A DNA stretch of 58,253 nucleotides from a virus (taxonomy: Duplodnaviria > Caudoviricetes). The notes below the pieces were generated by a model that was not told where the DNA came from, searched no databases, and was given only the letters and a program-made list of their open reading frames with translations. Every line of letters starts with the position of its first letter. The first letter of the stretch is position 1. The position numbers were made by a program, and so were the translations under genes. Positions 2,105-42,342 of the stretch are shown here, piece by piece. Location of the stretch: positions 1 to 58,253 of IMG/VR virus record IMGVR_UViG_3300037465_000242; one strand, 5' to 3'.

Positions 2105-3670
2105 ATGGGCGTCAAGGGCGCCAAGCGCTCGGGTCCGCACCATAAGCAAAAGCTCGACACCATCGACGCTAGGAGCCTCGAGCGCACGCTCTACCTGCGG
2201 CACTTCCGAGAATTCGTCGCCGACGCCTTCGAGGTCGTCGAGGGCGGCGACGCCCACGCGGCCCTCGTTCGCGCGGGGCGAAGGGCGCCGAAGTTCATCC
2301 AGGGCTGGCACATCGACGCCATCGCCGACCATCTCCAGGCGGTCGCCGAGGGCCAGATCCGGCGACTGCTGATCAACATCCCGCCCGGCACCTCCAAGAG
2401 CCTCCTGTCCTGCGTGCTCTGGCCCGCGTGGCTGTGGGCGCGCGATCCGACGCTCCGGTTCCTGTTCTCGAGCTACAGCGAGGAGTTCACCAGGCGCGAC
2501 TGCCGCAAGGCGAAGGCCTTGATCGCGAGCGACTGGTACCGCGGATTGTTCCCCGAGGTGAGGCTCAAGCGCGACCCCGACACGTCGATGGAACATCACA
2601 CAACCGCGGGCGGCGAGCGACACGGAGCTTCGACCGGCAGCGGCGTCACCGGCAAGCATGTACATTGCATAGTCGAGGACGATCCGCTCAAGGCGCAGGA
2701 CGCGCGCAGTCCGCGCGCCCGCGAGGAGGTGTGGGACTACCGGACGCAGACGCTCGGCTTCCGCCTCCTGCCCGAGACGGGGTGGCGCATCGTGATCATG
2801 CAGCGCTTGCACGAGGACGACCCGAGCGGCCGCATCCTCGCGCGCGCCGGCAAAGACGCCGAGGACGACCCGGACGAGTACGTGCACCTGTGCTTGCCGA
2901 TGGAGTTCGAGCCGTCGCGCCGCTGCTCGACCATCCTCTTCGACGACCCGCGCAAGGAGGAGGGCGAGTTACTTTGGCCCGCGCGCATGGACCGCAGGTT
3001 TGTCGACGCGCTCAAGAGCCCGCAGGGCCTCGGCGCGTACGGCTACGCGGGCCAAGCGCAGCAGCGTCCGAGCCCCGTCGAGGGCGGAGTGATCAAGCGG
3101 CACTGGTGGCGCTACTACGAGCAGCCGCCGGAGGTCTTCGACCGCGTGATCCTGTCGTGGGACCTGACGTTCAAGCAGACGGGCTCGAGCTGGGTCGTCG
3201 GCCAGGCGTGGGGGCAGAAGGGGCCGGACGCCTTCCTGCTCGACCAGGTGCGTGACAGGCTCGACTTCCCCGCGCAGGTCGCCGCCGTCCGGGCGCTGCG
3301 CGAGAAGTGGCCCGAGGCGAAGGAGACGCTGATCGAGGATGCGGCGAACGGCTCCGCCGTGGTAAGCGTGGTGCGGAAGGAGATCCCCGGTGTCATACCG
3401 ATCCCGCCGCGCGGCTCGAAGGAGGCCCGGCTCGCCGCCGTCGCGATGTTCGTCGAGGCGGGCAACGTGTGGCTGCCGCACCCGAGGATTGCCCCGTGGA
3501 TCGACGGGCTGGTAGAGGAGGTCACGGTGTTCCCCAACGGCGCCAACGACGATCAATGCGACTGCGCCGGCCAGGCGCTCGCGCGCTTGTTCGCCGCGTC
3601 GGCGAAGAAGCCGACGCGCCCGTTCGGCCTGGGGCGCGCCGGGGAGAGGCCCAACCCGTGGCAGCTGTGA
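2105..3670 (+). CDS. terL: terminase large subunit
   Basis: LLINIPPGTSKS Walker A, IVEDDP Walker B, IMQRLHEDD, nuclease SWD and FPNGANDDQCD. Confidence 0.95.
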   Translation: MGVKGAKRSGPHHKQKLDTIDARSLERTLYLRHFREFVADAFEVVEGGDAHAALVRAGRRAPKFIQGWHIDAIADHLQAVAEGQIRRLLINIPPGTSKSLLSCVLWPAWLWARDPTLRFLFSSYSEEFTRRDCRKAKALIASDWYRGLFPEVRLKRDPDTSMEHHTTAGGERHGASTGSGVTGKHVHCIVEDDPLKAQDARSPRAREEVWDYRTQTLGFRLLPETGWRIVIMQRLHEDDPSGRILARAGKDAEDDPDEYVHLCLPMEFEPSRRCSTILFDDPRKEEGELLWPARMDRRFVDALKSPQGLGAYGYAGQAQQRPSPVEGGVIKRHWWRYYEQPPEVFDRVILSWDLTFKQTGSSWVVGQAWGQKGPDAFLLDQVRDRLDFPAQVAAVRALREKWPEAKETLIEDAANGSAVVSVVRKEIPGVIPIPPRGSKEARLAAVAMFVEAGNVWLPHPRIAPWIDGLVEEVTVFPNGANDDQCDCAGQALARLFAASAKKPTRPFGLGRAGERPNPWQL

Positions 3671-3708: not shown

Positions 3709-5082
3709 ATGGTCGAGAGAGCGCTGCTCCACAAGTCGATGCCCCTCGACCTCGGCATCCACGGCACGACGGGCCTCAAGCAGTACGGCGGCTGGGTCGT
3801 CGAGGAGTTCCTGCCGCGGCTGCAGGGCCGCCAGGGCGTCCTCGTCTACCGCGAGATCGTCGACAACTCGAGCGTGCACGGCGCCATCAAGTTCGCGATC
3901 GAGTCCCTCCTGCGGCAGGTCGAATGGCGCGTCGAGCCGAGCGGCGACAGTCCCGAGGCGCGCGAGCAGGCCGAGTTCGTCGAGGGCGCGCTCGACGACA
4001 TGAGTCACACGTTCGAGGACCTGCTCGTCGAGATCCTCTCGCACCTCTGGTACGGCTGGAGCTACCACGAGATCGTCTACAAGCTGCGGCGCGGACCCGA
4101 CGCCTCGAGCTCGGCGGCGCGCAGCAAGTTCGACGACGGCAAGGTGGGCTGGCGCAAGCTGCCGATCCGGTCCCAGGACACGCTCGACCGCTGGGAGTTC
4201 GACCCCGCGGACAACGGCGTGCGCGGCATGTGGCAGATGGACCCCTACACGGGCGGCCGCGCGTTCATCCCGATCGAGAAGGCGCTGCTGTTCCGCGCCG
4301 GCGTCCACAAGAGCAACCCAGAGGGCAGGTCGATCTTCAGGAACAGCATCCTCGACCACTTCAAGCTCAAGCGGATCTCCGACATCGAGGCCGTCGGCAT
4401 CGAGCGCGATATGACGGGCCTCCTCGACATGCAGGTGCCGATGGAGATCCTGACGGCCTCCGCGGGGTCGGTCGAGGCGCAGATCAGGAGCGAGCTCGAG
4501 CGCATGCTGGCGACCGTCAAGCGCGACGAGCGCGAGTTCGTCATGCGGCCGACCGAGGTCGACCAGGACGGCAAGCCGACGGGCTACAAGCTCCAGCTCC
4601 TCGCGACCGGCGGGCGCCGCCAGATCGACACGACCGAGGTGAAGAACTACTACGTGCGCCGCATCCTCCAGACCGTCCTGTTCCAGTTCCTCGAGCTCGG
4701 CCAGGAGACCGGGTCGTGGTCGCTCGCCTCGAGCATGACCAAGCTCTCGAGCGTGGCCCTCGGCGCCGTCATGGACTCGATCACCGCCGTGCTCAACCGT
4801 TTCGCCATCCCGAGGCTCATGGACCTGAACGGCGTCCCAAGCGACCTCCACCCGCACATCGTCCACGGCGACATCGAGTCGCCGCCGCTCGACGAGGTCG
4901 CGCAGTACATCACCGCGCTCGCCACCGCCGGCATGCTCTCGCCGACGAAGCAGCTCGAGCGCAAGCTGCTCGAGATCGGCCGCCTGCCCGCCCCGCCGAT
5001 CGCGCAGGAGGACAGGCCGCTGCCGGGCGAGGAGCCGGAGGGGCAGCTCGAGCTCCCGTTGCCCGGCGCCGGGAGCGCCTGA
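3709..5082 (+). CDS. portal protein
   Basis: 457 aa directly after TerL; YGWSYHEIVYK, NPEGRSIFR, GIERD motifs of phage portals. Confidence 0.85.
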   Translation: MVERALLHKSMPLDLGIHGTTGLKQYGGWVVEEFLPRLQGRQGVLVYREIVDNSSVHGAIKFAIESLLRQVEWRVEPSGDSPEAREQAEFVEGALDDMSHTFEDLLVEILSHLWYGWSYHEIVYKLRRGPDASSSAARSKFDDGKVGWRKLPIRSQDTLDRWEFDPADNGVRGMWQMDPYTGGRAFIPIEKALLFRAGVHKSNPEGRSIFRNSILDHFKLKRISDIEAVGIERDMTGLLDMQVPMEILTASAGSVEAQIRSELERMLATVKRDEREFVMRPTEVDQDGKPTGYKLQLLATGGRRQIDTTEVKNYYVRRILQTVLFQFLELGQETGSWSLASSMTKLSSVALGAVMDSITAVLNRFAIPRLMDLNGVPSDLHPHIVHGDIESPPLDEVAQYITALATAGMLSPTKQLERKLLEIGRLPAPPIAQEDRPLPGEEPEGQLELPLPGAGSA

Positions 5083-5083
5083 G

Positions 5084-6043
5084 ATGCCACTCGTCGTCGT
5101 GCGCAAGCAAGACCGCTGGCGCCGCGCGCCTGGCGCCGACAAGGAGCAGCGCCAGTCGTTCGCTATCGCGGCCCGCAACGTGTCGAGGTTCGCGCGCGCC
5201 TTCGCCGAGGCCGTGCGCGCGCTCGTCACGCCGACGGTCGTCCGCGAGCTCCAGAGCCGAGCGGCCGCGGGCGCCACGATCGAGGAGATCGTCGCGGCGA
5301 TCCCGTGGCTCGAGGAGGCCCGCCCGGAGGCCGTCGAGCAGTGGACCGAGATGGCGAGGCGGTTCGAGGCCGCGCACCTGCGGGTGCTCGGCGAGGCCGC
5401 GGCCGATCCAGCGCGAGATCGCGCGGCCGAGGTCCAGAAGCGCGCGAGGCGCGTGCCCTCGGTCCCCGTCAACCCAAAGTCGGTCGCGTGGGCCCGAGAG
5501 AGGGGCGCCGCGCTCGTTCGCGACATCAGTCGCGAGGCCCGCAAGGTCGTCCGCGGCGTCGTCGCCCGCTCCCTCGAGCGCGGCGAACGCGCCGACGCGA
5601 TGGCCCGTCGCATACGCAGGGCCGTGGGCCTCCTCGAGCGCGAGGAGGCCGCGGTCGAGCGGCGTCGCGAGCTGCTCCTGTCGCAGGGCGTCCCAGAGCG
5701 CCGGGCCGAGCAGCTCTCCGACAAGTACGCCGACGAGCTTCTTTCCGCCCGCGCGACGCGCATCGCCCGCACCGAGACGATCGCCGCGCAGAACCGCGGC
5801 CTGTTGGACTCGTGGCGGGCCGCGAGCGATGCCGGCGCCTTGCCGCCGGTCGTGCGCGTGTGGGTCTCCGCGCCGCCGAGCGACAACCCAGGCCGCCCGT
5901 GCCCGATCTGCCTCGAGCTCGACGGGCAGGAGACACCGCTCGACGAGCCGTTCCAGTCCGCGCAGCTCGGGGAGGCCGTGATGGCGCCCCCCTCGCATCC
6001 CGGCTGCCGATGCACTCAGACGCTTCGGCGAGCGGAAGCGTGA
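5084..6043 (+). CDS. minor head protein (MuF / SPP1 gp7-like)
   Basis: RATRIARTET, CPIC..LDG, PPSHPGCRC; follows the portal. Confidence 0.9.
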   Translation: MPLVVVRKQDRWRRAPGADKEQRQSFAIAARNVSRFARAFAEAVRALVTPTVVRELQSRAAAGATIEEIVAAIPWLEEARPEAVEQWTEMARRFEAAHLRVLGEAAADPARDRAAEVQKRARRVPSVPVNPKSVAWARERGAALVRDISREARKVVRGVVARSLERGERADAMARRIRRAVGLLEREEAAVERRRELLLSQGVPERRAEQLSDKYADELLSARATRIARTETIAAQNRGLLDSWRAASDAGALPPVVRVWVSAPPSDNPGRPCPICLELDGQETPLDEPFQSAQLGEAVMAPPSHPGCRCTQTLRRAEA

Positions 6044-6071: not shown

Positions 6072-9000
6072 GTGAACAAGCCCACGACGTGGATCGCCAA
6101 GAAGTTGACCGACGCCGACCGCCGGGAGATCGAGCGAGAGACCGCTGAGATCCGCGAGCGCCGCAAAACGCCAGAGGCGCGTCGACCTCACAAGTTCGAA
6201 ACCGCCGAGTGGACGCACCCGAACGGTCACCCGCGATGCGTCATCTGCGGCGACGAGGAGCCCATGGGCGACACGTGCTATGTCGAGAAAGATCAGCTCG
6301 ACGCCGACGCGCTTGCGACTTCGATGCCCGACGTAGAGGACGTCGTCGCGCGAATGGTCGAGCTCGAGCGTCGCGGTCTCTCGCGACAGGCCGCGCGCGC
6401 CCGCATACGCGCCGAGCTCAAGCTCGAGGGCGCGAGCCGCGAGGACGCCACGGAGCTCGTGGCGCGGGCGGAGCGAGTCGAGAAGGCGCGGCCGATGTCG
6501 CGCGAGTACCTAGAGGAGGCCTGGACGATCGCGCGCAAGCTCCTGCCGCCGTGGGCATGGGCGCAGATCCACAGCCAGGCGCTCCCGAGATCGGGCGTGC
6601 GCGCGGCGCGCGCCGCGCGCGAGGACTCGCCGTCGCTGTTCGAGAAGATCGCGCTCGTCGACGTCCGCCCCAGCAAGCTGCGTGAACTGCCCGAGGACGA
6701 GCTGCGGCTCGCTTGGCTGCGGCTGCACCAATGGTACGCGAATGCCAAGCGCGCCAAGCGCCCCGTCGAGGACTTCGTCAACGCCGCCCTGTGGACCATG
6801 GACGAGATGGGCCGGCGCGGCCTCGACGTCGAGCGCGATGACGACCTCGTGCGCGCGATCGAAGACCTGCGCGGCAAGCGCGCGTCCGTCGACGTTTTCG
6901 CCAAGCTCAACTCCCTTCCCCGCGACCTCGTGGTCGTTCGCGACTTCGTGTCGGTCGTCGGCTCGACGGCGAAGGGAAACAAGGAGCCCGAGGACGTCGA
7001 CGTGCTCCTGCGCGCGCCTTGGGATCGGCAAGCGGGGAGCATCGCCATCCAGGCGGAGAACGTCTGGTTGCCGCTGCGCAACGCGCTCGATCCCGACAAG
7101 GCCGGCAAGCTGCACTGGATCGACAACCCTCAGGGCGCGCACGGCGATTACGTCCCGCTCTACGACCTCGTCCTGCGGCGCCGCGACAAGATCGCTGTCG
7201 AGGTCGTCAAGGGCTTTCCTAATTCCACTGCCGAGGTCGGCGTGCACGTCCATAACCTCGAGCGCGAGGCTTCGCGCACGAAGGAGGACGGGGCGCACGC
7301 GCACCTGTACATCCTCCCCGACGGTCGCCGGATCTGGACCGAGGCCGACGGCGCGCACTCCCACGCGCTCGGCTCCCCGACCGCGGACATCGTCGGCCAG
7401 GGCGGAGCGCATAGGCACCGAGTCGTGGTCGACGGCGAGGAGCTCTGGACCGAGGAGGACGGCGCGCACGCCCACCAGCTCCAGGTGTGGTCGTCGGCGT
7501 TCGACGGCATCCACTCGCACAAGCTCAAGCTCAGGAGCGGCGAGACGATCGAGAACCTCATGCCCGGCGCCTACTGGGAGCACGAGGGCCGCCCAGCGCA
7601 GGGCGGATCTCCGCCCGCGCCGCCGGCGCCCGAGCTCGCGCGGCTCGTGAAGGCCGGCCCGCTGCGCGTCGACCTCGGCTGCGGCGACGCGAAGTCCGAG
7701 GGCTACTTCGGCATCGACAAGCGCAAGCTGCCTGGCGTCGACCAGATCGCCGACCTCGAGCAGGGCATCCCGCTCGACGACGCGACGGTCGACGAGGTTA
7801 GGGCGCACCACGTCCTCGAGCACCTCGCTGACAAGGAGCGGATCATGGCCGAGATCCATCGCGTGCTGCGGCCTGGCGGCAGGCTCGTGCTCGAGGTTCC
7901 GAGCACGAAAGGAGAGGGCGCGTTCGCGCATCCGGACCACAAGTCGTGGTGGAACAAGTCGAGCTTCGCCTTCTGGTCGCAGGACGAGCTTCGCGGCGAT
8001 CGACCGAAGTTCGAGGTCGAGGAGCTCGAAGAGGAGATCCGCGGCGACCTCGCCTACGTCAGGGCCGTGCTCCGCAAGCCCGCGGTGGATCCGATCGCTA
8101 AGGCCGTACGTCCGTTCGGCGACTTCACGCCGCCGAAGCCGGCGGTACCTCTGCGCACCGAGCTGTTCGAGGTCGACGAGCTGTGGGAGTGGGCGGAGGA
8201 GCGCCTGCCGGTCTACGTCGAGCCGAAGCACAACGGCTTTCGCGCCATCCTCGAGAAGCAGGGCGATCGGGTTCGCCTGCGGTTCGAGGGCGCGCGCGAC
8301 GACGTGATCGAGCGCTTCCCGGGCCTCCGCGAGGCCGCGCGCAAGATCGCCGGCGACTTCGTCCTCGACCTCGACGCGGGCATCGAGCGCGGCGGCAAGC
8401 GCCTGCCGCGCCCGGAGCTGGCGCGCCTCAACGCCGAGAGCCCGAAGTTAGGGCCGGACGAGAAGCCAGTGCTCACGGCGTTCGACCTCCCACACAAGGG
8501 CTCGGACCTCAGCGGGGAGTCGTTCGCCGAGCGGCGCGAGGTCTTGGAGGCGTTCTTCGAGGGCGAGCTCAAGAGCTCCGGCCTGTTCAAGCTGTCGCCG
8601 GTTCGGCGAGTCGGATCGCGCGCCGAGCTCGAGGAGGCGGCGCGCTGGGCGTTCGATCAGGATCGCTCCGAGGGCCTCGTCGCCAAGAGCGCGCGGGGGC
8701 TCTACGAGACCGACGGCGGCACGAACGAGTGGTCGAAGCTCAAGCGCGTCGCCGAGCTCAAGGTCATCGTCCTTGGCGTGCAGCGCACGGCCGACGGCAG
8801 CTTCAACTACCGCGGCGGCCTGCTGCTCGGCGACCTGGATCTCTCGAACACGGTCGAGCTCGAGGGGCGCGCTTACGTCGACCTCGGCAAGACGTTCAAC
8901 ACGAAGATCGTCGCCTCCGAGGGCGACGTCCTCACGGTGGAGATCCTCGAGCTGATCCCCGACGAGCGCGAGAAGACCCTGGCGTGGCTCGGCCCGACGG

Positions 9001-10769
9001 TCGTCGACGTCGACCGCGCGCGCTCGCAGCCGTACCTCGCGCGCCAGGCGATCGACATCGCTGCGAGGGCTCGGGTGCTCCAGAAGACCGCCATCGTGCC
9101 GACCTCGGGGCCGGCGGGCGCGCCGCTCGCGCTCGTCGGCTCGTCGCCCGGGAAGGTCGAGGCCGCGCGCGGCGAGCCCTTCGTGGGCCAGGCGGGCGAG
9201 ACGCTTAACGAGCTCTACCTCCGGCCGCTCGGCCTCGAGCGCTCCCGCGTCGTGGTCACGAACGCCGTGCCGATCCTGCTCGTCGACGAGGCCGGCGCGG
9301 CGCGCGAGCCGACCGACGAGGAGATCGATCGCTGGCGCGGATGGCTCGAGGGCGAGCTGGATCGTCTCAAGCCCCGGGTCGTCGTGGCGCTTGGGCAGGT
9401 GGCGCGACGAGCCCTTGGAGGCAAAGTCGTCGCCGTGCTCCCGCACCCGGCCGCGGTGCGCAGGTTCGGCGACTCCGGCGAGGTCGAGCGCAAGCTGCGC
9501 CGCATCAGGGAGGCGATCGGGCTCGCCAAGGGCGAGCGCGTCGGTGTGCGCAAGCAGCCGCCGCGCGGCGAGGGCGGCGAGGAGACGCGGGGCCGTCGCG
9601 CGTTCGACGTCTGGGAGGAGACCTGGCACGAGCAGCTCCCGCGGTCGGGCGCCGGCCGGTTCGTCTACCAAAGACACTGGCGCGGCCTCGACGAGGAGCA
9701 GGCGAAGAGGCTTGGCGACGCCGATCTCCTCGAGACCGATCACAGCGTCCACGGCGACCTCCGCCTCGAGGGCGACGACGAGCTGTGGGGCTGGGCCGTG
9801 TTCGTCGGCTCCGCGGCCGACAACCGGAAGCTCCGCGCCGGCGACAAGCTGCTCGCGATGAGCGAGGGCGCGCTCGGCCAGGACAAGCTGCAGCTCGCGA
9901 ACAAGCTCCCGCAGCCGAAGGCGTGGCTCGACGTCGGCGCCCGCGAGCCGCTCGTCGCGATGCCCGGCGAGGTCGGGGCGACCTCGGAGAAGTGGTCCAA
10001 ATTCTTCGCGGTCGACGAGGGCACCTACCGGCTCGGCGTGGCGCGTCAGCACGCCGTGGAGATTTTCCTTGACGGGAAGCACCTCAAGGGGCGATACCTG
10101 ATCCAGTTCGCGCCCGTAGGCGACAGACGGGTCTGGCTGATCGACAAGCCGGACGACCAGCGGCCGACGGGAGAGACACGCGAGCTCGCCGACCTAATAG
10201 GCGAACTGAGGCGCAAGCGGCAGAAGTTCCTGATCTGGGGCAAGCCCGGAGAGGTCCCGCAGAAGATCGACGTCCGATCCGGCAGGGTCATCAAGTCGGT
10301 CACGGTCCCGCTGCTCAAAGAGCGAACGCTCGAGGACAAGCGGATCGTCTACGGGGTCGTCCTCGACCCGTACGTCGTCGACGCCCACGATGATTGGGTG
10401 CCGCCCGACGTGATCGAGGAGACGGCCCACGGGTGGTTCAAGGGCTCCCGCCTCGTCACGCTGCACCACAAGACCAGCGCCAACGCGAGAGCGGTCGAGA
10501 GCCACGTGGAGGCCTACCCGTCGCGCAGCGACTACGTCAGGGCGAGGCTCGGCGAGTCGCACAGGGCGTGGCGGAGGCAGTACGGCGACGACGTCGTGCA
10601 CTCCGGGGCCTGGATCATCGGCGTGCAGCTCGACGACGACCTGTGGGAAGCCTACAAGCGGGACGAGATCGCGGCGTTCAGCATCGAGGGCTTCGGCATG
10701 AGGACCCCGACGACGCGCAAGTCGATGCCGCAGGTGACGTTCGCAGACCTCATCGAAGTCCGGCGCTGA
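6072..10769 (+). CDS. multidomain head protein: Pol-beta-type NTase + His-rich repeats + SAM methyltransferase + ATP-dependent ligase + UDG-like + LigD-type 3'-phosphoesterase + XkdF-like prohead protease
   Basis: VVGSTAKG..EPEDVDV (~6950-7005); repeated DGxHxH (~7240-7530); VDLGCG..GID..HVLEHL..RVLRPGG (~7660-8080); EPKHNGFR, FDL, EGLVAK, WSKLK (~8105-9075); GSSPG..E..GEPFVG.AG, TNAV, HPA (~9090-9520); FVYQRH..HGDLRLE (~9650-10150); KRIVYGVVLDP..DAHDD..VES..GAW..FSIEG (~10300-10720). Confidence 0.8.
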   Translation: MNKPTTWIAKKLTDADRREIERETAEIRERRKTPEARRPHKFETAEWTHPNGHPRCVICGDEEPMGDTCYVEKDQLDADALATSMPDVEDVVARMVELERRGLSRQAARARIRAELKLEGASREDATELVARAERVEKARPMSREYLEEAWTIARKLLPPWAWAQIHSQALPRSGVRAARAAREDSPSLFEKIALVDVRPSKLRELPEDELRLAWLRLHQWYANAKRAKRPVEDFVNAALWTMDEMGRRGLDVERDDDLVRAIEDLRGKRASVDVFAKLNSLPRDLVVVRDFVSVVGSTAKGNKEPEDVDVLLRAPWDRQAGSIAIQAENVWLPLRNALDPDKAGKLHWIDNPQGAHGDYVPLYDLVLRRRDKIAVEVVKGFPNSTAEVGVHVHNLEREASRTKEDGAHAHLYILPDGRRIWTEADGAHSHALGSPTADIVGQGGAHRHRVVVDGEELWTEEDGAHAHQLQVWSSAFDGIHSHKLKLRSGETIENLMPGAYWEHEGRPAQGGSPPAPPAPELARLVKAGPLRVDLGCGDAKSEGYFGIDKRKLPGVDQIADLEQGIPLDDATVDEVRAHHVLEHLADKERIMAEIHRVLRPGGRLVLEVPSTKGEGAFAHPDHKSWWNKSSFAFWSQDELRGDRPKFEVEELEEEIRGDLAYVRAVLRKPAVDPIAKAVRPFGDFTPPKPAVPLRTELFEVDELWEWAEERLPVYVEPKHNGFRAILEKQGDRVRLRFEGARDDVIERFPGLREAARKIAGDFVLDLDAGIERGGKRLPRPELARLNAESPKLGPDEKPVLTAFDLPHKGSDLSGESFAERREVLEAFFEGELKSSGLFKLSPVRRVGSRAELEEAARWAFDQDRSEGLVAKSARGLYETDGGTNEWSKLKRVAELKVIVLGVQRTADGSFNYRGGLLLGDLDLSNTVELEGRAYVDLGKTFNTKIVASEGDVLTVEILELIPDEREKTLAWLGPTVVDVDRARSQPYLARQAIDIAARARVLQKTAIVPTSGPAGAPLALVGSSPGKVEAARGEPFVGQAGETLNELYLRPLGLERSRVVVTNAVPILLVDEAGAAREPTDEEIDRWRGWLEGELDRLKPRVVVALGQVARRALGGKVVAVLPHPAAVRRFGDSGEVERKLRRIREAIGLAKGERVGVRKQPPRGEGGEETRGRRAFDVWEETWHEQLPRSGAGRFVYQRHWRGLDEEQAKRLGDADLLETDHSVHGDLRLEGDDELWGWAVFVGSAADNRKLRAGDKLLAMSEGALGQDKLQLANKLPQPKAWLDVGAREPLVAMPGEVGATSEKWSKFFAVDEGTYRLGVARQHAVEIFLDGKHLKGRYLIQFAPVGDRRVWLIDKPDDQRPTGETRELADLIGELRRKRQKFLIWGKPGEVPQKIDVRSGRVIKSVTVPLLKERTLEDKRIVYGVVLDPYVVDAHDDWVPPDVIEETAHGWFKGSRLVTLHHKTSANARAVESHVEAYPSRSDYVRARLGESHRAWRRQYGDDVVHSGAWIIGVQLDDDLWEAYKRDEIAAFSIEGFGMRTPTTRKSMPQVTFADLIEVRR

Positions 10770-10840: not shown

Positions 10841-11665
10841 GTGGCGAAGGACGCCATCAATGTTTTGACCAACCTCGACACGCTGGGCGTGAGCCTGGTG
10901 CGCCGGGGCGCGAACAAGAGGAAGTTCGCGATCACGAAGTCGGAGGAAGTCATGGACGAGAAGGACATCGAGTTGCTGTCGACCGTGCTCAAGGAGGCGG
11001 GCTACGACGGCGAAGAGAAGCTGGCCGAGGCGATCGCCAAGCAACAGCTCGGCGAGAAGGAGCAGAACGCGATCAAGGGCGCGCTGCGCATCCTCAACGC
11101 CTTCCGCGACAACGCGGAGATCAAGAAGCTCGCCGACATGCTCGCGGCGGCCGTCGGCTACCCGCCACCCAACGGCGGCTACCCGGCCCCGAAGATGCCG
11201 GACGATGCCAAGAAGCCCTCCTACCCGACGCCGATGGCGAAGGCGATCGAGGGTCTTCCCAGCGAGCAGCGCGCCGCCATGGAGCCCGTGCTCAAGGCGA
11301 TCTACGAGTCCGTCGAAGCGTCCGCCGTCGAGCGCATCCAGAAGGCCGAGGAGCGCGCGGCCAAGACGGAGGAGATCCTCAAGGCCGAGCGCGACGAGCG
11401 CCTCCGCAAGGAGTTCGTCGCCAAGGCCGTCGCCGAGTACGACAAGGTGCCCGGCAAGCCCGAGGAGCTCGGGCTCGTCCTCAAGTCGCTCCACGACGTC
11501 GACCCCGGCCTTTGCAAGAAGGTCGAGGCCGTCCTCAAGTCGACGCAGGCCGTGCTCAAGGAAAGCGCGCTCTTCGTCGAGAAGGGCCGATCGGGCGAGA
11601 GCGTCAACGACAACGATCCCTGGGCGCAGATCCAGAAGGCCGCCGACTCGGCGGCCGCCCAGTAA
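10841..11665 (+). CDS. capsid scaffolding protein
   Basis: GTG 10841 after AGGAG; helical and K/E/A-rich; sits between the protease and capsid genes. Confidence 0.7.
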   Translation: MAKDAINVLTNLDTLGVSLVRRGANKRKFAITKSEEVMDEKDIELLSTVLKEAGYDGEEKLAEAIAKQQLGEKEQNAIKGALRILNAFRDNAEIKKLADMLAAAVGYPPPNGGYPAPKMPDDAKKPSYPTPMAKAIEGLPSEQRAAMEPVLKAIYESVEASAVERIQKAEERAAKTEEILKAERDERLRKEFVAKAVAEYDKVPGKPEELGLVLKSLHDVDPGLCKKVEAVLKSTQAVLKESALFVEKGRSGESVNDNDPWAQIQKAADSAAAQ

Positions 11666-11677
11666 GGAGAAGCAACC

Positions 11678-12049
11678 ATGGCTTACGAGGTACCCCTTCA
11701 CCGCCCGCCCGTCGGACTCGCCGCGGCGGATCTGTCCACGCACCAGTTCAAGTTCGCGAAGGTCACCGGCGCCAACGCCGTGAACATCGCGACCGCCGGC
11801 ACCGACGTGGTGATCGGCGTCATCCAGAACAAGCCGACCTCCGGCCAGGCGGTCGAGGTCGAGACGCAAGGCACGACGAAGGTTGTGGCGGGCGCCGCCA
11901 TCTCGGCCGGCGCCGCGGTCATGCCGGACGCTTCGGGCCGCGCCGTCACGGCGACGTCGACCAACAAGATCCAAGGCGTCGCGCTCGAGGCCGCGGGCGG
12001 CGCCGGGGAACTCGTGACCGTGCTGCTGCGGGCCATGGGCACGCTGTAA
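11678..12049 (+). CDS. capsid decoration/cement protein (DUF2190-like)
   Basis: 123 aa, Gly/Ala/Val-rich; V.AGAAI.AG..V..DASGRAV and GVALEAA. Confidence 0.75.
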   Translation: MAYEVPLHRPPVGLAAADLSTHQFKFAKVTGANAVNIATAGTDVVIGVIQNKPTSGQAVEVETQGTTKVVAGAAISAGAAVMPDASGRAVTATSTNKIQGVALEAAGGAGELVTVLLRAMGTL

Positions 12050-12073: not shown

Positions 12074-13231
12074 ATGATCCATCCCATCAAGAAGTCTTAC
12101 GCACCCTGGGTGCGCGGCGCCCCTGGCGCCCTCCGCCAGATCATGAAGGCGGAGCAGATCTCCGAGTTCATGCGGACGGAGAAGGGCGTCGAGCTGTACA
12201 AGGCGTATCTCGCTCAGCACCCGGAGCAGGTCTACGCGGGCGCGGCGCCGAGCGCCATCGCGAAGGGTCAGCCGACCCCGAGCGACGTCCACGTGAACCA
12301 GCCGCTGTCGATGATCTCGATCGCGTTCTTGCAGGACCTGAACGAGTTCATCGCGGACAAGGTGTTCCCGAACATCCCGGTGCAGAAGCAGAGCGACCGC
12401 TACTACTTCTATCCCCGGGGCAACTGGTTCCGCTCGCAGGCGAAGGAGCGCGCGCCGGCGACGGAGTCGGCAGGGTCCGGCTACGACATCGACTCGACGC
12501 CGACCTACGTCGCGAAGCCGATCGCGCTGCACAAGGACGTGGACGATCAACTCAGGTCGAACGCCGACCCGATGATCGACCTCGACCGCGACGCGACCGA
12601 GTTCGTGACGCGCCAGCTCGCGCTCAAGCGTGAGAAGGACTGGGCGGCTCGGTTCTTCGCGACCGGCGTGTGGACCGGCTCGACCACGGGCGGCGACATC
12701 ACGCCGGCCACCCTCTGGTCGGCGCCGGGCTCGACGCCGATCGAGGACATCCGGGCGCAGAAGTCGAGCATCAAGACCAAGACGGGCTTCAAGCCGAACA
12801 CGCTCGTGCTCGGGAACAAGGTGTGGGACGTGCTCCAGGATCACCCGGAGTTCACCGACCGCATCAAGTACACCGAGCGCGGCATCGTCGGCCTGGACCT
12901 GATCGCGGCGGTGCTCGAGCTCGACCAGGTGCTCGTCGCCACGGCGGTCGAGAACACCGCGGCCGAGGGCTTGGCGGAGTCGATGTCGTTCGTGCTCGAC
13001 AGCAAGGACGCGCTGCTCTGCTACTCGAACCCGCGCCCGAGCCTGATGACCCCCTCGGCGGGGTACATCTTCTCGTGGGCGGGCTACCTCGGCGCAGGCC
13101 CCGCGGGCCAGCGTATGAGCCGGTTCCGCATGCAGCAGCTGCGCGCGGACCGGGTCGAGGGCGAGATGGCCTACGACATGAAGGTCGTCGCCCCCGAGAT
13201 GGGCGCGTTCTTCAACAACGCGGTTGCGTGA
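12074..13231 (+). CDS. major capsid protein with N-terminal extension
   Basis: Strong AGGAG RBS; PTPSDVHV..PL..ISIA, FIADKVFP.IPV.KQSD.YY; size and position. Confidence 0.85.
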   Translation: MIHPIKKSYAPWVRGAPGALRQIMKAEQISEFMRTEKGVELYKAYLAQHPEQVYAGAAPSAIAKGQPTPSDVHVNQPLSMISIAFLQDLNEFIADKVFPNIPVQKQSDRYYFYPRGNWFRSQAKERAPATESAGSGYDIDSTPTYVAKPIALHKDVDDQLRSNADPMIDLDRDATEFVTRQLALKREKDWAARFFATGVWTGSTTGGDITPATLWSAPGSTPIEDIRAQKSSIKTKTGFKPNTLVLGNKVWDVLQDHPEFTDRIKYTERGIVGLDLIAAVLELDQVLVATAVENTAAEGLAESMSFVLDSKDALLCYSNPRPSLMTPSAGYIFSWAGYLGAGPAGQRMSRFRMQQLRADRVEGEMAYDMKVVAPEMGAFFNNAVA

Positions 13232-41469: not shown

Positions 41470-42342
41470 TCATGCATCCTCCGGCGATCTGAACCCCAAG
41501 AACACGGGGAGCCTCGGCGCGTCCTTCTCGCCGAACTTCTGCGACTTGTACTTCACGACGGCTCCGAGGTAGCGATCACGCTCTGCCCACACGCGGGCGC
41601 GCAGCTCCTCGGTGAGCCCCGCGCCGACGCCGAACTCGACGCCGTCCGGTCGGCGCAGGATCAAGGCGCCCAGGGTGCTCGCGGGGACCTTGCCGCCCTT
41701 CGAGCTCGAGCGCTTGGTGAGGCCGAGCTCGTTGGTCTTCGCCTCGTTCTCGTTGCGCATCAGCTCCTCGAAGCCGACGACGGTCGCCTCCGCGTCGAGG
41801 AATCTTTTCAGCTTGAGCAGCCAACCCTCGCGCAAGGTCGATCGGCCCTGCTTGTAGGGGCCCTCGGGGCGCCGCAGCATCAGGCCCTCGAAGCCTCGGG
41901 CGAGCGCTTCCTCCTCGGCCGTCGCGAGCTGCTCCGGCCCGTCGACCCAGAACGTCGGCACGACCTGCACGCGCGGGTCGTCGATCCTGGCGACGACCTC
42001 GGCGAGCGCCTCGACGCGCTCGCGGTAGGGCGCGAGGAGCCCGAGGCCGAGGTAGTCGAAAGCGCAGAAGGCGAAGTCGGGCTCGCCCTCGTGCGACATG
42101 ATCGCCGACGTGCAGTCCTGGAACGTCGCGCCCGAGAGCAGCTCGCCGTCGAGCCCGTGCGGCAGCGCGCGCTCGAGCGTCTCGCGCACGTGCTTGTTCG
42201 GGATCGGCTTGAGCGAGCGCGACAGCAGTCGACCCGCGATCGTGAGGGCTCGGATCCCGTCTATCTTGGGCGAAACGATCATCGGATACGGCAGCGCCTT
42301 GACGTCCTCTACGGTCGCGGCGAGCATGGGCCTACGAATCAC
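41470..42342 (-). CDS. ATP-dependent DNA ligase
   Basis: PMLA, SPKIDGIR, LDGEL, FD, EGLMLR, LLKLKRF and an OB-fold tail; GTG 42342. Confidence 0.92.
   Translation of the reverse strand: MIRRPMLAATVEDVKALPYPMIVSPKIDGIRALTIAGRLLSRSLKPIPNKHVRETLERALPHGLDGELLSGATFQDCTSAIMSHEGEPDFAFCAFDYLGLGLLAPYRERVEALAEVVARIDDPRVQVVPTFWVDGPEQLATAEEEALARGFEGLMLRRPEGPYKQGRSTLREGWLLKLKRFLDAEATVVGFEELMRNENEAKTNELGLTKRSSSKGGKVPASTLGALILRRPDGVEFGVGAGLTEELRARVWAERDRYLGAVVKYKSQKFGEKDAPRLPVFLGFRSPEDA

What the first reader, a model, noticed from the sequence alone, without database searches (positions are those of the whole stretch)
6072..10769. Prohead protease fused to a multi-enzyme nucleic-acid repair kit
Seen: one 1565-aa ORF in the protease slot (between MuF and scaffold) carries ordered motifs for a Pol-beta-superfamily nucleotidyltransferase, His-rich repeats, a class I SAM methyltransferase, an ATP-dependent ligase, a UDG-like domain, a LigD-type 3'-phosphoesterase and a C-terminal XkdF-like protease. 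Established: glycosylase, 3'-end healing, nucleotide addition and ligation are steps of base-excision/nick repair, and prohead proteases are assembled into the procapsid. Inference: the protease acts as a packaging tag that loads repair enzymes into the head, for delivery with the genome or to repair it after host nuclease or deaminase attack. Enzyme fusions to head proteins such as MuF are known in general; I cannot confirm whether this combination has been described.
Basis: partly seen in the sequence, partly recalled or inferred. Interest (0 to 1): 0.88.

Follow-up and report, generated by a model that had tools for sequence, protein, structure and literature searches.

The report
Head protease fused to DNA-repair enzymes
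An uncultured tailed phage makes its only recognisable capsid-maturation protease as the tail end of a 1565-residue protein that also carries a DNA ligase, a DNA-end-cleaning enzyme, a uracil-glycosylase-like domain, a methyltransferase and a small nucleotidyltransferase, probably so that a DNA-mending kit is built into the virus head, though packaging is untested.

Summary
ORF 6072-10769 (+) is real and lies between the MuF and scaffold/capsid genes of a myovirus. Pfam passes its thresholds for the SAM methyltransferase, ATP-dependent DNA ligase, UDG and C-terminal XkdF protease. A confident AlphaFold model of residues 1150-1410 matches only LigD 3'-phosphoesterases. The nucleotidyltransferase rests on an invariant GS...DxD motif, one homologue passing Pfam and weak fold matches.

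The protein belongs to a large cassette-like family: 75 IMG/VR loci, and 341 cluster representatives at E<=1e-30 for the phosphoesterase+protease part. XkdF is C-terminal in 147 of 151 family proteins. Catalytic residues are conserved across the family. Every domain junction carries a conserved hydrophobic-x-Lys, a candidate processing site. A separate canonical ligase sits in the replication module, so the fused ligase is an extra one.

Best reading (about 0.5): a polyvalent head protein that its own protease cuts into enzymes carried in the capsid, which heal and seal the incoming genome. Packaging, cleavage and all enzyme activities are inferred. It is a new variant of the published "polyvalent protein" class.

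The parts
6072..10769 (+). Whole polyprotein gene (P0001, 1565 aa; GTG start behind a GGAGGA ribosome-binding site)
6072..6476 (+). Module A, residues 1-135: Cys/His-containing N-terminal module of unknown fold. It moves between family members.
   Evidence: BLASTP maps residues 8-83 onto other positions in P0011, P0053, P0065 and P0066. Present in 10 of 197 family proteins. No Pfam hit and no Atlas hit.
6489..7226 (+). Module B, residues 140-385: helical subdomain followed by a minimal (MNT-like) Pol-beta-superfamily nucleotidyltransferase core at about residues 287-367, with G297-S298...D308-x-D310
   Evidence: G297, D308 and D310 each kept in 54 of 55 relatives. AF2 model pLDDT 75.4 overall, high over this part. 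VIA second look: 8xeo_B Z 5.0, rmsd 3.2, 70 aligned; 1no5_B Z 4.8. Homologue P0052 passes PF01909. Present in 153 of 197 family proteins.
7227..7646 (+). Module C, residues 386-525: six GxHxH His-pair repeats, then a Pro-rich linker. Function unknown; metal binding is a guess.
   Evidence: repeats at 390, 407, 427, 445, 464, 479. Pfam YmaF only E 0.46. AF2 confidence low to middling. Atlas uninformative. Present in 21 of 197 family proteins.
7647..8087 (+). Module D, residues 526-672: small class I SAM-dependent methyltransferase (DLGCGD motif; H580-x-x-E583-H584 invariant). Substrate unknown.
   Evidence: Pfam Methyltransf_11 43.1 bits, cut-off 21.2. H580, E583 and H584 kept in 42 of 42 relatives. 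43.7% identity to a Synechococcus phage S-CRM01 methyltransferase.
8097..9086 (+). Module E, residues 676-1005: ATP-dependent DNA ligase (adenylation domain plus a C-terminal part that was not analysed). Motifs: I K719-H-N-G-F-R, III LDLDA, IIIa FD, IV EGLVAK, V WSKLKR.
   Evidence: Pfam 51.9 bits, cut-off 26.2. Family profile against PDB: archaeal DNA ligases 2cfm and 3gde, E about 1e-16. Residue alignment to the M. tuberculosis LigD ligase domain 1vs0. K719, N721, R724, E867 and K872 kept in 64 of 64 relatives.
9087..9521 (+). Module F, residues 1006-1150: family-4-like uracil-DNA-glycosylase-superfamily domain. It has no Fe-S cysteines. Motif A reads GSSPG; motif B reads HPAA.
   Evidence: Pfam UDG 74 bits. 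PDB 4zbx E 4.4e-14, with residue alignment. Motif A positions A 19/22, S 19/22, P 21/22; H1125 21/22.
9564..10286 (+). Module G, residues 1165-1405: LigD-type 3'-phosphoesterase fold with H1202...H1227-x-D1229-x-R1231
   Evidence: AF2 pLDDT 91.9. Foldseek top 7 all LigD phosphoesterases (3p43 E 3.9e-7, TM on target 0.79). Family profile against PDB: 5 of 5 hits are LigD phosphoesterases. Pfam LigD_N sub-threshold in 14 of 49 members. H1227, D1229 and R1231 kept in 44 of 44 relatives.
10299..10769 (+). Module H, residues 1410-1565: XkdF-type (Peptidase_S78_2) putative prohead serine protease, at the very C-terminus
   Evidence: Pfam 56.7 bits, cut-off 24. phrog_3017 head maturation protease, 4.2e-16. 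D1437 and S1537 kept in 53 of 53, H1466 in 48 of 53. C-terminal in 147 of 151 family proteins.
7203..7214 (+). Example of the conserved junction motif (V378-V-K380-G). The others are L667-R-K, I675-A-K, L1003-Q-K, V1159-R-K, V1406-I-K and L1414-L-K. These are candidate self-processing sites.
   Evidence: Of 19 [VILM]-x-K tripeptides in P0001, 7 are kept in at least 18 of 21 aligned relatives. Six of these lie at domain junctions; the seventh is ligase motif IV. The F|G junction falls in a model stretch with pLDDT below 50.
10841..11665 (+). Next gene: 274-aa scaffold-like protein whose conserved N-terminal motif (EVSLVxRGANxKKFxIxK) matches the N-terminus of the XkdF-protease family phrog_3017
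   Evidence: The same kind of downstream gene occurs in distant relatives L063 and L053.
5084..6043 (+). MuF-like head morphogenesis gene directly upstream
   Evidence: Pfam Phage_Mu_F E 6.4e-14
12074..13231 (+). Major capsid protein gene
   Evidence: phrog_1005 E 2e-87; Pfam Phage_cap_E
41470..42327 (-). Separate stand-alone canonical ATP-dependent DNA ligase (285 aa; motif I KIDGIR), beside the DNA polymerase gene

Best explanation
P0001 is a phage 'polyvalent' head protein. It is a chain of nucleic-acid enzymes whose C-terminal XkdF domain is the phage's capsid-maturation protease.

Shown here:
- The domain identities and their order.
- The head-gene slot.
- A large cassette-like family with the protease at the C-terminus.
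- Conservation of catalytic residues.
- A conserved hydrophobic-x-Lys at every junction.
- A second, canonical ligase in the replication module.

Inferred:
1. The protease domain co-assembles with the scaffold inside the procapsid and so drags the enzyme chain in.
2. The protease then cuts the chain at the junction Lys sites into single enzymes, which are too large to leave the shell.
3. These enzymes travel in the head with the DNA and enter the cell with it.
4. There, the minimal nucleotidyltransferase, the LigD-type 3'-phosphoesterase and the ligase act like a LigD end-healing and sealing set on the incoming phage genome. The substrates would be nicks, dirty 3' ends and breaks made by host nucleases, or damage accumulated in the virion. 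The UDG-like and methyltransferase modules are optional add-ons.
For: Domain calls.
- Pfam above threshold for the methyltransferase, ligase, UDG and XkdF.
- Phosphoesterase fold: model pLDDT 91.9. All 7 Foldseek matches with E<=0.001 are LigD phosphoesterases. 5 of 5 PDB profile hits are LigD phosphoesterases.
- Nucleotidyltransferase: motif kept in 54 of 55 relatives, P0052 passes PF01909, MNT folds at Z 4-5.

Gene context.
- Terminase, portal, MuF, P0001, scaffold, scaffold, capsid.
- By phmmer with the window's own proteins, 34 of 57 loci with at least 1.5 kb upstream show MuF or portal. 23 of 54 with at least 1.5 kb downstream show scaffold or capsid. The 23 upstream misses are 18 distant loci, the weak match L076 and four nearer ones (L027, L034, L044, L051). 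The 31 downstream misses likewise include the nearer L027, L028, L034, L044 and L051.
- PHROGs on 10 flanking ORFs of 7 distant loci: 6 of 6 upstream are portal or MuF-like. Of 4 downstream, one is a major-head/virion structural protein, two carry the scaffold N-terminal motif (phrog_3017/phrog_13975) and one hits only phrog_13975.
- No S78, ClpP or S49 protease anywhere in the record.

Family.
- 67 proteins in the word-indexed search.
- 75 IMG/VR loci.
- 341 cluster representatives at E<=1e-30, and 2129 at E<=0.001, for residues 1165-1565.
- XkdF at the C-terminal end in 147 of 151. Modules come and go as cassettes.

Catalytic residues kept.
- Ligase K719, R724, E867 and K872: 64 of 64.
- Phosphoesterase H1227, D1229 and R1231: 44 of 44.
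- XkdF S1537 and D1437: 53 of 53.

Junction motifs.

Extra canonical ligase (KIDGIR) next to the polymerase, so the fused ligase is not the replication ligase.

Predicted complex of the XkdF domain with the scaffold-like protein: weak support only.
- Score 0.51 (median of 3 runs); best of 3 controls 0.00.
- The mark was reached by 58 of 80 solved complexes and 2 of 110 mismatched pairs. At 0.60 or under it was reached by only 7 of those 80 and by both passing mismatches.
- Runs agree in at least 62% of contacts; partner pLDDT at least 55.

Precedent in print.
- Phage polyvalent proteins are predicted to be capsid-packaged, and an assemblin-like peptidase is always at their C-terminus (PMC5512222, passages).
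- T4 and P1 load proteins through capsid-targeting sequences (PMC9024508, passages).
- Mycobacteriophages Omega and Corndog use host LigD to circularise their genomes (PMC12848934, passage citing Pitcher 2006).
Against: There is no direct evidence of packaging, cleavage, ejection or any enzyme activity.

Incorporation route.
- Ordinary XkdF proteins such as Lactococcus phage 28201 gp33 carry the protease at the N-terminus with about 200 further residues behind it.
- P0001 has nothing behind the protease domain, so how it enters the procapsid is open.
- The complex prediction is only weak support.

Departures from the textbook enzymes.
- Ligase motif I has Asn for Asp, in 64 of 64 relatives.
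- UDG motif A lacks the Glu, and the Fe-S cysteines are absent.
- The phosphoesterase region that aligns to the 'EDH' His of LigD is not conserved.
- The nucleotidyltransferase fold support is weak: no Foldseek match at E<=0.001.

Other points.
- No AP-endonuclease or lyase, kinase or Ku was recognised.
- Minimal family members are just phosphoesterase plus XkdF, about 330-420 aa; 5 of the 11 proteins under 450 aa. The phosphoesterase-like domain may therefore serve the protease itself rather than be cargo.
- The record is only 76% complete by CheckV, so another protease could lie in the missing part.
- Many copies of a 170-kDa protein would take up much head volume (my own reasoning).
Confidence: 0.5

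Rival explanations
1. The enzymes work in the producer cell at the assembly and packaging site and are then discarded. Tethered to the procapsid or portal through the protease, they would seal nicks, trim ends and remove uracil from DNA about to be packaged. They would then be degraded or expelled at maturation, so nothing is delivered to the next host.
For: Same anatomy and slot as the main reading. The junction Lys motifs would equally serve degradation. From recall, not from any call: prohead proteases and scaffolds normally leave the head after cleavage, and T4 packaging is sensitive to nicks.
Against: Folded 15-35 kDa enzyme domains would not easily leave a closed shell (my reasoning). 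The phage already has a separate canonical ligase for DNA metabolism in the cell. Polyvalent proteins in print are interpreted as delivered (PMC5512222).
Confidence: 0.15
2. The enzyme folds are mostly non-catalytic internal head proteins. They would be DNA-binding or space-filling cargo, or an extended scaffold, that has kept old folds.
For: Departures from canonical motifs: ligase Asn for Asp, UDG GSSPG without Fe-S, and the LigD His84 region not conserved. Earlier notes of this scan describe relatives with dead ligase and phosphoesterase domains (e1-6091949, e1-3295555; unchecked AI notes). Phosphoesterase+XkdF minimal forms exist.
Against: Across the family the nucleotidyl-transfer lysine and motifs IV and V are kept in 63-64 of 64, the phosphoesterase HxDxR in 44 of 44, the nucleotidyltransferase DxD in 54 of 55 and the methyltransferase HxxEH in 42 of 42. 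That pattern is expected for working active sites. The Asn in motif I is itself invariant, which points to a family-specific chemistry rather than decay.
Confidence: 0.1
3. The kit acts on RNA or on host proteins rather than on phage DNA. One version is repair of tRNAs cut by host anticodon nucleases, using phosphoesterase, nucleotidyltransferase, ligase and a Hen1-like methyltransferase. Another is protein nucleotidylation by the MNT-like domain.
For: Relatives carry an N-terminal 2H/LigT phosphoesterase: P0011, P0025 and P0034, that is 3 of the 7 proteins scanned. Minimal Pol-beta nucleotidyltransferases in polyvalent proteins were predicted to modify proteins (PMC5512222). The methyltransferase has no DNA-methylase motif that I could see, and it has an HxxEH...H pattern. 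The likeness of that pattern to Hen1 is recalled, not tested.
Against: The ligase module is nearest to DNA ligases: archaeal ligases at E about 1e-16 and the LigD ligase domain. The UDG superfamily and the LigD phosphoesterase are known from DNA repair. The methyltransferase profile hits in PDB did not include Hen1 among the 60 rows shown of 84.
Confidence: 0.12
4. The long ORF is an assembly or frameshift artefact that joins separate genes.
For: In five related contigs the homologous region is split into two ORFs: L016, L018, L022, L024 and L045.
Against: Dozens of independent contigs and databases hold uninterrupted homologues with the same order. GC3 is 0.92 for the ORF as a whole.
Confidence: 0.01

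Closest known systems
Phage-type polyvalent proteins with a C-terminal virion-assembly peptidase (Iyer, Burroughs, Anand, de Souza, Aravind 2017, PMC5512222; passages read)
   Same: Many unrelated catalytic domains in one polypeptide. Encoded beside portal, MuF and terminase genes. A peptidase at the C-terminus, proposed to process the protein during virion assembly. Minimal Pol-beta nucleotidyltransferase, GNAT, 2H and methylase modules also occur in that class.
   Different: In that paper's main text 'UDG' occurs 0 times, 'uracil' once (in a reference) and 'ligase' 3 times (RNA ligases). The six 'phosphoesterase' hits are 2H or polymerase-associated. A LigD-phosphoesterase + DNA ligase + UDG cargo is therefore not described there. 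The peptidase named there is 'assemblin-like'. Whether that includes XkdF I could not establish. A later paper from the same group calls XkdF 'unrelated' to the S77 prohead peptidase (PMC7824862). The full architecture lists of the 2017 paper are in external files that I could not see.
Bacterial LigD (NHEJ ligase with polymerase, 3'-phosphoesterase and ligase domains)
   Same: A 3'-phosphoesterase of the same fold joined in one protein to an ATP-dependent DNA ligase and a nucleotide-adding domain. The logic is end healing plus sealing.
   Different: The nucleotide-adding module is a minimal Pol-beta/MNT-type fold, not an archaeo-eukaryotic primase-polymerase. The phosphoesterase is below the Pfam LigD_N threshold and carries a 19-residue insert between the two His ligands. 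Ligase motif I reads KxNGxR. No Ku is present in the record. The protein is fused to a capsid protease in a head-gene module.
Ordinary XkdF-type head proteases, e.g. Lactococcus phage 28201 gp33 (349 aa; annotated 'head maturation protease' in the RefSeq record)
   Same: Same Pfam and PHROG protease family and the same slot: terminase, portal, head morphogenesis, protease, capsid.
   Different: There the protease domain is N-terminal and about 200 residues follow it. Here it is the last 155 residues behind about 1400 residues of enzymes. The N-terminal motif of that family (phrog_3017 positions 5-52) sits on the separate downstream scaffold-like gene.
Capsid-targeted internal proteins: T4 IPs and Alt, P1 DarB (PMC9024508, passages); HK97 protease-mediated encapsidation (Duda, Oh, Hendrix 2013, seen only as a reference; content recalled)
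   Same: Proteins are loaded into the procapsid through a targeting element, often cut by the head protease, and delivered with the DNA to protect it.
   Different: Those systems use short N-terminal targeting sequences or separate adaptor proteins. Here the proposed tag is the protease domain itself, and the cargo is a repair set rather than an anti-restriction methylase/helicase or an ADP-ribosyltransferase.

Membership tests
Polyvalent proteins of phages (Iyer et al. 2017) | Several domains of disparate activity in one polypeptide | tested here: met
   Seven recognisable modules plus one unknown
Polyvalent proteins of phages (Iyer et al. 2017) | Encoded by a phage with a portal-terminase system, in the head-gene neighbourhood | tested here: met
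   conserved in relatives
Polyvalent proteins of phages (Iyer et al. 2017) | Packaged in the capsid and transmitted with the DNA | not testable with these tools
   Needs virion proteomics. The only indirect test was the weak complex prediction with the scaffold.
XkdF / Peptidase_S78_2 (PF14550) | Match above the Pfam gathering score | tested here: met
   56.7 bits against 24; profile positions 7-123 of 126
XkdF / Peptidase_S78_2 (PF14550) | Conserved candidate catalytic Ser, His and Asp | tested here: inconclusive
   S1537 and D1437 kept in 53 of 53, H1466 in 48 of 53. Which residues are catalytic in this family is not known to me from any call.
ATP-dependent DNA ligase (PF01068) | Match above the Pfam gathering score | tested here: met
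   51.9 bits against 26.2
ATP-dependent DNA ligase (PF01068) | Motif I KxDGxR with the adenylated Lys | tested here: inconclusive
   Lys719 and Arg724 are present (64 of 64), but the Asp is Asn in 64 of 64. The effect on activity is unknown.
ATP-dependent DNA ligase (PF01068) | Motifs III, IIIa, IV and V | tested here: met
   LDLDA (Asp for Glu), FD, EGLVAK and WSKLKR, aligned to 1vs0. E867 and K872 kept in 64 of 64, K889 and K891 in 63 of 64.
ATP-dependent DNA ligase (PF01068) | OB-fold domain with motif VI | not tested
   Residues about 895-1005 are conserved, but neither the fold nor motif VI was examined.
Family 4 uracil-DNA glycosylase | UDG superfamily match | tested here: met
   Pfam 74 bits against 24.3. 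The best PDB hits are family 4 and UdgX.
Family 4 uracil-DNA glycosylase | Motif A GE[AG]PG (motif form recalled; the aligned 4zbx reads GEAPG) | tested here: not met
   GSSPG in the query; A 19/22 and S 19/22 at the two middle positions in relatives
Family 4 uracil-DNA glycosylase | Four Cys binding a 4Fe-4S cluster (recalled feature) | tested here: not met
   No Cys in residues 1006-1150. The Cys of 4zbx align to non-Cys residues.
Family 4 uracil-DNA glycosylase | Motif B His | tested here: met
   H1125 in HPAA; kept in 21 of 22
LigD 3'-phosphoesterase (PF13298) | Fold | tested here: met
   Foldseek 3p43 E 3.9e-7, TM on target 0.79. All 7 significant hits are LigD phosphoesterases.
LigD 3'-phosphoesterase (PF13298) | Pfam gathering score | tested here: not met
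   23 bits for the isolated module, cut-off 31.1. 14 of 49 members match at E<=0.01, all sub-threshold.
LigD 3'-phosphoesterase (PF13298) | His...His-x-Asp-x-Arg metal and phosphate site | tested here: met
   HGDLRLE aligns to HYDFRLE of 3p43, 3p4h, 5dmp and 3n9b. H1227, D1229 and R1231 kept in 44 of 44. H1202 kept in 27 of 27 where aligned; 17 sequences are cut short there.
LigD 3'-phosphoesterase (PF13298) | Equivalents of P. aeruginosa His84 and Tyr88 (recalled as essential) | tested here: inconclusive
   The stretch aligned to '...EDH' of 3p4h is not conserved and has no His in P0001. Invariant K1278, P1282 and W1285 lie nearby. No residue-level structural superposition was available.
Pol-beta-superfamily (MNT-like) nucleotidyltransferase | hG[GS]...D-x-[DE] motif | tested here: met
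   G297-S298, D308-x-D310. G, D and D each kept in 54 of 55; S in 49 of 55.
Pol-beta-superfamily (MNT-like) nucleotidyltransferase | Third catalytic carboxylate | tested here: inconclusive
   Candidate D340 is kept in only 30 of 55
Pol-beta-superfamily (MNT-like) nucleotidyltransferase | Profile or fold match | tested here: inconclusive
   The query has no Pfam hit. PF01909 matches 2 of 51 members at E<=0.01. P0052 scores 28.8 bits, above the cut-off of 21. Foldseek gives nothing at E<=0.001. VIA gives Z 4-5 to MNT folds over model residues 152-232.
Class I SAM-dependent methyltransferase | Pfam match and glycine-rich SAM motif | tested here: met
   Methyltransf_11 43.1 bits against 21.2. In DLGCGD, D534 and G536 are kept in 33 of 33 where aligned.

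The most novel reading that the evidence does not exclude
A widespread, undescribed class of virion-borne DNA repair. Phages would build a LigD-like end-healing and sealing set into the head: a minimal nucleotidyltransferase, a 3'-phosphoesterase and a ligase with a KxNGxR active site, here extended by a UDG-like domain, a methyltransferase and a His-repeat module. The set is fused to the capsid protease, which cuts it apart at hydrophobic-x-Lys sites. The pieces are injected with the genome. They then reseal nicks and breaks, or circularise the genome, in the first minutes of infection. The ligase may be pre-adenylated so that it needs no host ATP. This would be a general counter to host nucleases and to damage accumulated in long-lived virions.
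Probability: 0.3. Interest if true: 0.85.

Novelty: new variant of a known kind. Interest (0 to 1): 0.62.

Why it matters
Known virion-delivered phage proteins protect DNA by masking or methylating it, or they reprogramme the host. A delivered repair kit would be a different counter-defence: mending what nucleases, glycosylases or time have already done to the genome.

The family is large. For the phosphoesterase+protease part there are 341 cluster representatives at E<=1e-30. It is modular. It would therefore be a natural library of capsid-loadable enzymes, and a test bed for how cargo is targeted to phage heads.

It also offers a distinct, strictly conserved ligase variant (KxNGxR, 64 of 64) and a divergent LigD-type phosphoesterase for biochemistry.

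If the enzymes turn out not to be packaged, the finding is still a compact example of domain accretion onto a head protease.

Tried and rejected
- Megablast of the gene against 50,697 phage records: no match. tblastn there gave only single-domain hits, and none of the 45 records covered 80% of the query or more.
- VIA-align against 48,161 PDB representatives with the B+C model: the list was filled by generic helical matches to model residues 52-138, best Z 7.0. It says nothing about the nucleotidyltransferase or the His repeats.
- ESM Atlas on residues 384-512 (best score 0.75, an unnamed cluster) and on residues 1-138 (no usable hit): uninformative.
- I thought the scaffold's N-terminal motif resembled the stretch just before the XkdF domain in P0001. 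An HMM of the scaffold N-termini found no significant match in any large ORF; the best rows had E 5 to 68 and lay elsewhere. The idea is dropped.
- I took the 'AIAK|G' in the capsid protein as a maturation site. Relatives' capsid proteins simply start at MPQPTPSD. The window's 64-residue N-terminal extension is therefore peculiar to it, and the site is only a suggestion.
- Searches of the record for S78, ClpP, S49 and Ku found nothing. The S77 search rang in no control genome, so it is uninformative.
- Genome contigs gave 6 loci, all in metagenome-assembled genomes: Bacillota, Dehalococcoidales, Chloroflexota, Dehalococcoides, Leptospira, and one methyltransferase-only hit in Fuerstiella. No cultured host came out of it.
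- Notes of this scan for this genome and this sequence: none.
- Literature. Eight answered full-text searches found no paper describing a ligase, LigD-phosphoesterase or UDG fusion to an XkdF or prohead protease. 'phage + LigD + phosphoesterase + virion' returned 0 papers. The one paper holding 'maturation protease', 'DNA ligase', 'uracil-DNA glycosylase' and 'fused' (PMC4889955) was read by passages and is unrelated. Subscription journals and supplements were not searchable.
- Duda et al. 2013 (PMC3709472) is not held.

Full report
WHAT IS THERE

The window is a 58,253-bp IMG/VR virus record, about 70% G+C, estimated 76% complete. It encodes a myovirus:
- large terminase 2105-3670, Mu-type portal 3709-5082 and MuF 5084-6043;
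- scaffold-like genes 10841-11665 and 11678-12049, and major capsid protein 12074-13231;
- tail sheath, tape measure and baseplate genes;
- on the other strand, a replication module with DNA polymerase, helicases, primase and a DNA methyltransferase.

The finding's ORF, 6072-10769 (+), is an open 1565-codon frame. Its GC3 is 0.92. It has a GTG start behind a GGAGGA ribosome-binding site, directly after the MuF stop. It is the gene between MuF and the scaffold genes.

DOMAIN BY DOMAIN

Pfam passes its own thresholds for four domains:
- Methyltransf_11, residues 558-607;
- DNA_ligase_A_M, 713-891;
- UDG, 1012-1132;
- Peptidase_S78_2/XkdF, 1417-1543.

PHROGs agrees on the protease, ligase and methyltransferase.

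I divided the protein into modules A-H by mapping relatives onto it.

Module G (1165-1405) is only a sub-threshold LigD_N hit: 17.4 bits in the whole protein, 23 bits alone, and 14 of 49 family members at E<=0.01.
- An AlphaFold2 model built on a 49-sequence alignment is confident (pLDDT 91.9, pTM 0.87).
- Its seven Foldseek matches with E<=0.001 are all LigD 3'-phosphoesterases: 3p43, 3n9b, 3p4h, 3n9d, 5dmp and 2lj6. The next row has E 0.012.
- A profile of the module hits only LigD phosphoesterases in the PDB sequence set: 5 of 5, best 5.6e-5. 'HGDLRLE' aligns to their 'HYDFRLE'.

Module B (140-385) models as a helical subdomain followed by a small alpha/beta core (pLDDT 75.4 for B+C together).
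- Foldseek finds nothing at E<=0.001. Its weak rows include MNT antitoxins.
- The VIA second look aligns model residues 152-232 to MNT-type nucleotidyltransferases at Z 4-5: 8xeo_B Z 5.0, rmsd 3.2, 70 aligned; 1no5_B Z 4.8. The tool warns this is a middling level.
- The motif G297-S298...D308-x-D310 is kept: G, D and D each in 54 of 55 relatives.
- One homologue, 45% identical over the module, passes PF01909.
- I accept a minimal Pol-beta-type nucleotidyltransferase with moderate confidence.

Module C (386-525) holds six GxHxH units. It has no significant family or fold match.

Module A (1-135) is an unassigned Cys/His module that appears at other positions in a few relatives.

ARE THE ENZYMES LIKELY TO BE ALIVE?

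Earlier notes of this scan describe relatives with dead ligase and phosphoesterase domains. I therefore counted key residues over all distinct related ORFs from the 75 IMG/VR loci.

| Module | Residues | Kept |
|---|---|---|
| Ligase | K719, R724, E867, K872 | 64 of 64 |
| Ligase | K889, K891 | 63 of 64 |
| Phosphoesterase | H1227, D1229, R1231 | 44 of 44 |
| Nucleotidyltransferase | D308, D310 | 54 of 55 |
| Methyltransferase | H580, E583, H584 | 42 of 42 |
| XkdF | S1537, D1437 | 53 of 53 |
| XkdF | H1466 | 48 of 53 |

Against full orthodoxy:
- Ligase motif I reads KxNGxR, with Asn in 64 of 64. Motif III has Asp for Glu.
- The UDG-like domain has GSSPG where the aligned family-4 enzyme 4zbx has GEAPG. 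It has no cysteine where 4zbx has its cluster cysteines.
- The stretch aligned to the 'EDH' of LigD phosphoesterases is not conserved.

So the ligase, phosphoesterase and nucleotidyltransferase look active but variant. The UDG-like domain may excise uracil or may only bind DNA.

A FAMILY, NOT A ONE-OFF

- The word-indexed search returned 67 proteins of 860-2739 aa. Two of them are unrelated methyltransferase-only hits.
- A pattern scan of IMG/VR gave 75 loci.
- An exhaustive phmmer of residues 1165-1565 against 1.84 billion cluster representatives gave 2129 hits at E<=0.001 and 341 at E<=1e-30.

I scored the 197 proteins in hand with HMMs of my eight modules.
- XkdF is present in 151, and within 25 residues of the C-terminus in 147 of them.
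- The nucleotidyltransferase module is in 153, ligase in 139, UDG in 84, methyltransferase in 58, His repeats in 21 and module A in 10.
- Many of these proteins are fragments. The second batch was selected through module G, so these are not unbiased frequencies.

The commonest architectures are B-E-F-G-H, B-D-E-G-H, B-E-G-H and B-D-E-F-G-H. Minimal forms are G-H alone, about 330-420 aa. Only one other protein shows the full A-to-H order.

More distant loci place the phosphoesterase directly after the nucleotidyltransferase and reach 2310 aa. Other cassettes seen are 2H/LigT, Dam methylase, GNAT and metallo-beta-lactamase folds.

GENE CONTEXT IN RELATIVES

phmmer with the window's own head proteins gave these counts:
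- MuF or portal upstream in 34 of 57 loci with at least 1.5 kb of upstream DNA;
- scaffold or capsid downstream in 23 of 54 loci with at least 1.5 kb of downstream DNA.

The 23 upstream misses are 18 distant loci (L042, L052 onward), the weak match L076 and four nearer ones (L027, L034, L044, L051). The 31 downstream misses likewise include the nearer L027, L028, L034, L044 and L051.

For seven of the distant loci I scanned 10 flanking ORFs with PHROGs.
- 6 of 6 upstream ORFs are portal or MuF-like.
- Of the 4 downstream ORFs, one is a major-head/virion structural protein and two carry the scaffold N-terminal motif (phrog_3017/phrog_13975). One hits only phrog_13975, a family of unknown function.

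In the window's own record no S78, ClpP or S49 protease was found. The S77 search was uninformative. XkdF here is therefore the only recognisable head protease, with the caveat of 76% completeness.

TWO FURTHER OBSERVATIONS BEAR ON THE MECHANISM

First, the record has a second, stand-alone ligase of canonical type at 41470-42327 (-). It is 285 aa, has motifs KIDGIR and LDGELL, and lies beside the polymerase gene. The fused ligase is therefore an additional enzyme with its own conserved signature, not the replication ligase.

Second, every junction between modules carries a conserved hydrophobic-x-Lys, although the linkers otherwise vary in length and sequence.
- The sites are VVK380, LRK669, IAK677, LQK1005, VRK1161, VIK1408 and LLK1416.
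- Of the 19 such tripeptides in P0001, seven are kept in at least 18 of 21 aligned relatives. Six of these are at junctions; the seventh is ligase motif IV.
- The F|G junction lies in a model stretch with pLDDT below 50.
- I read these as candidate self-processing sites. This is inference. The specificity of XkdF proteases is not known to me.

HOW IT MOST LIKELY WORKS

Prohead proteases act inside the procapsid, so a protein that ends in the protease should be taken in with it. Cutting at the junctions would leave single folded enzymes that cannot leave the shell. They would stay with the DNA and enter the next cell with it, as is established for T4 internal proteins and P1 DarB (PMC9024508, passages). 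The same is proposed in general for phage polyvalent proteins with a C-terminal assembly peptidase (PMC5512222, passages).

The recurrent modules are the nucleotidyltransferase, the LigD-type phosphoesterase and the ligase, present in 153, 192 and 139 of the 197 proteins; G is inflated by the selection through it. This set mirrors the polymerase-phosphoesterase-ligase logic of bacterial LigD. That points to healing and sealing of DNA ends: nicks and breaks from host nucleases, or joining of genome ends. That phages care about end joining at entry has precedent. Mycobacteriophages Omega and Corndog use host LigD to circularise (PMC12848934, passage citing Pitcher 2006).

A complex prediction of the XkdF domain with the downstream scaffold-like protein gave weak support only.
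- Median score 0.51; best of 3 controls 0.00.
- The mark was reached by 58 of 80 solved complexes and 2 of 110 mismatches. At 0.60 or under it was reached by only 7 of the 80 and by both mismatches.
- Runs agreed in at least 62% of contacts; partner pLDDT at least 55.

None of packaging, cleavage, ejection or activity is shown. I put the whole chain of inference at about 0.5.

RIVALS

- The enzymes act at the packaging site in the producer cell and are discarded (0.15).
- They are non-catalytic internal proteins (0.10). This is disfavoured by the residue counts.
- They act on RNA or host proteins (0.12). The 2H cassettes in relatives, and the published view of minimal nucleotidyltransferases as protein modifiers, speak for it. 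The DNA-ligase, UDG and LigD-phosphoesterase affinities speak against it.
- It is an assembly artefact (0.01).

An open difficulty for the main reading is the incorporation route. Ordinary XkdF proteins have about 200 residues behind the protease domain. P0001 has none, so the incorporation signal is unidentified.

COMPARISON WITH WHAT IS KNOWN, AND NOVELTY

The class is published: polyvalent phage proteins, including ones ending in a virion-assembly peptidase. In the main text of that paper, however, UDG is absent. 'Ligase' refers to RNA ligases, and the phosphoesterases discussed are 2H or polymerase-associated. Its complete architecture tables are external files I could not see.

Eight answered full-text searches found no description of a DNA ligase, LigD phosphoesterase or UDG fused to an XkdF or other prohead protease.

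Within this scan, similar fusions have been noted in other genomes. The window is therefore one, unusually complete, member of a recurrent design. I rate it a new variant of a known kind, of solid but not exceptional interest until packaging is tested.

Noticed in passing
window 42944-45862 (-): The 972-aa DNA polymerase matches polymerase families at both ends. Its middle part, residues about 446-763, matches stretches of unrelated PHROGs (thymidylate synthase, PhoH, ribonucleotide reductase). It begins with a Cys-containing 'CFHPDTEILT' stretch. This looks like an intein or homing-endonuclease insert.
   Followed up: no
window 41470-42327 (-): A stand-alone 285-aa canonical ATP-dependent DNA ligase (KIDGIR, LDGELL, EGLMLR, LLKLKR), which my GC3-based gene list had missed. 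It makes this a two-ligase phage.
   Followed up: partly
window 12074-12265 (+): The window's capsid protein has a 64-residue N-terminal extension ending AIAK|GQPTPSD. In 20 related loci the conserved capsid sequence begins at about that point, mostly preceded by Met-Pro. The extension may be a removable propeptide, or the start codon may be mis-assigned.
   Followed up: partly
window 10865-11020 (+) and related loci: The scaffold-like protein downstream of the polyprotein has a strongly conserved N-terminal motif, L.DL...EVSLV.RGAN.KKF.I.K. It matches the N-terminus (positions 5-52) of the XkdF-protease family phrog_3017. The same is seen downstream of distant relatives L063 and L053. Its role (docking on the protease, cleavage site) is unknown.
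   Followed up: partly
L016, L018, L022, L024, L045: In five related contigs the homologous polyprotein region is split into two overlapping ORFs. This could be sequencing frameshifts, real splits or programmed frameshifting. Not examined.
   Followed up: no
window 8226-8243 (+), ligase motif I: The fused ligase and all 64 distinct relatives read K-x-N-G-x-R instead of the usual K-x-D-G-x-R. This is a strictly conserved family signature whose biochemical meaning is unknown.
   Followed up: partly
window 7227-7520 (+): Six GxHxH repeats, spaced 15-20 residues apart, form a module found in 21 of 197 family proteins. It has no family or fold match. It may bind metal.
   Followed up: partly
L054, L073, L060, L058 (distant relatives): Relatives of 1939-2310 aa have long stretches with no Pfam match between the recognisable modules. 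Beyond ligase and XkdF, only a Dam methylase (L054) and a metallo-beta-lactamase fold (L073) were recognised.
   Followed up: no
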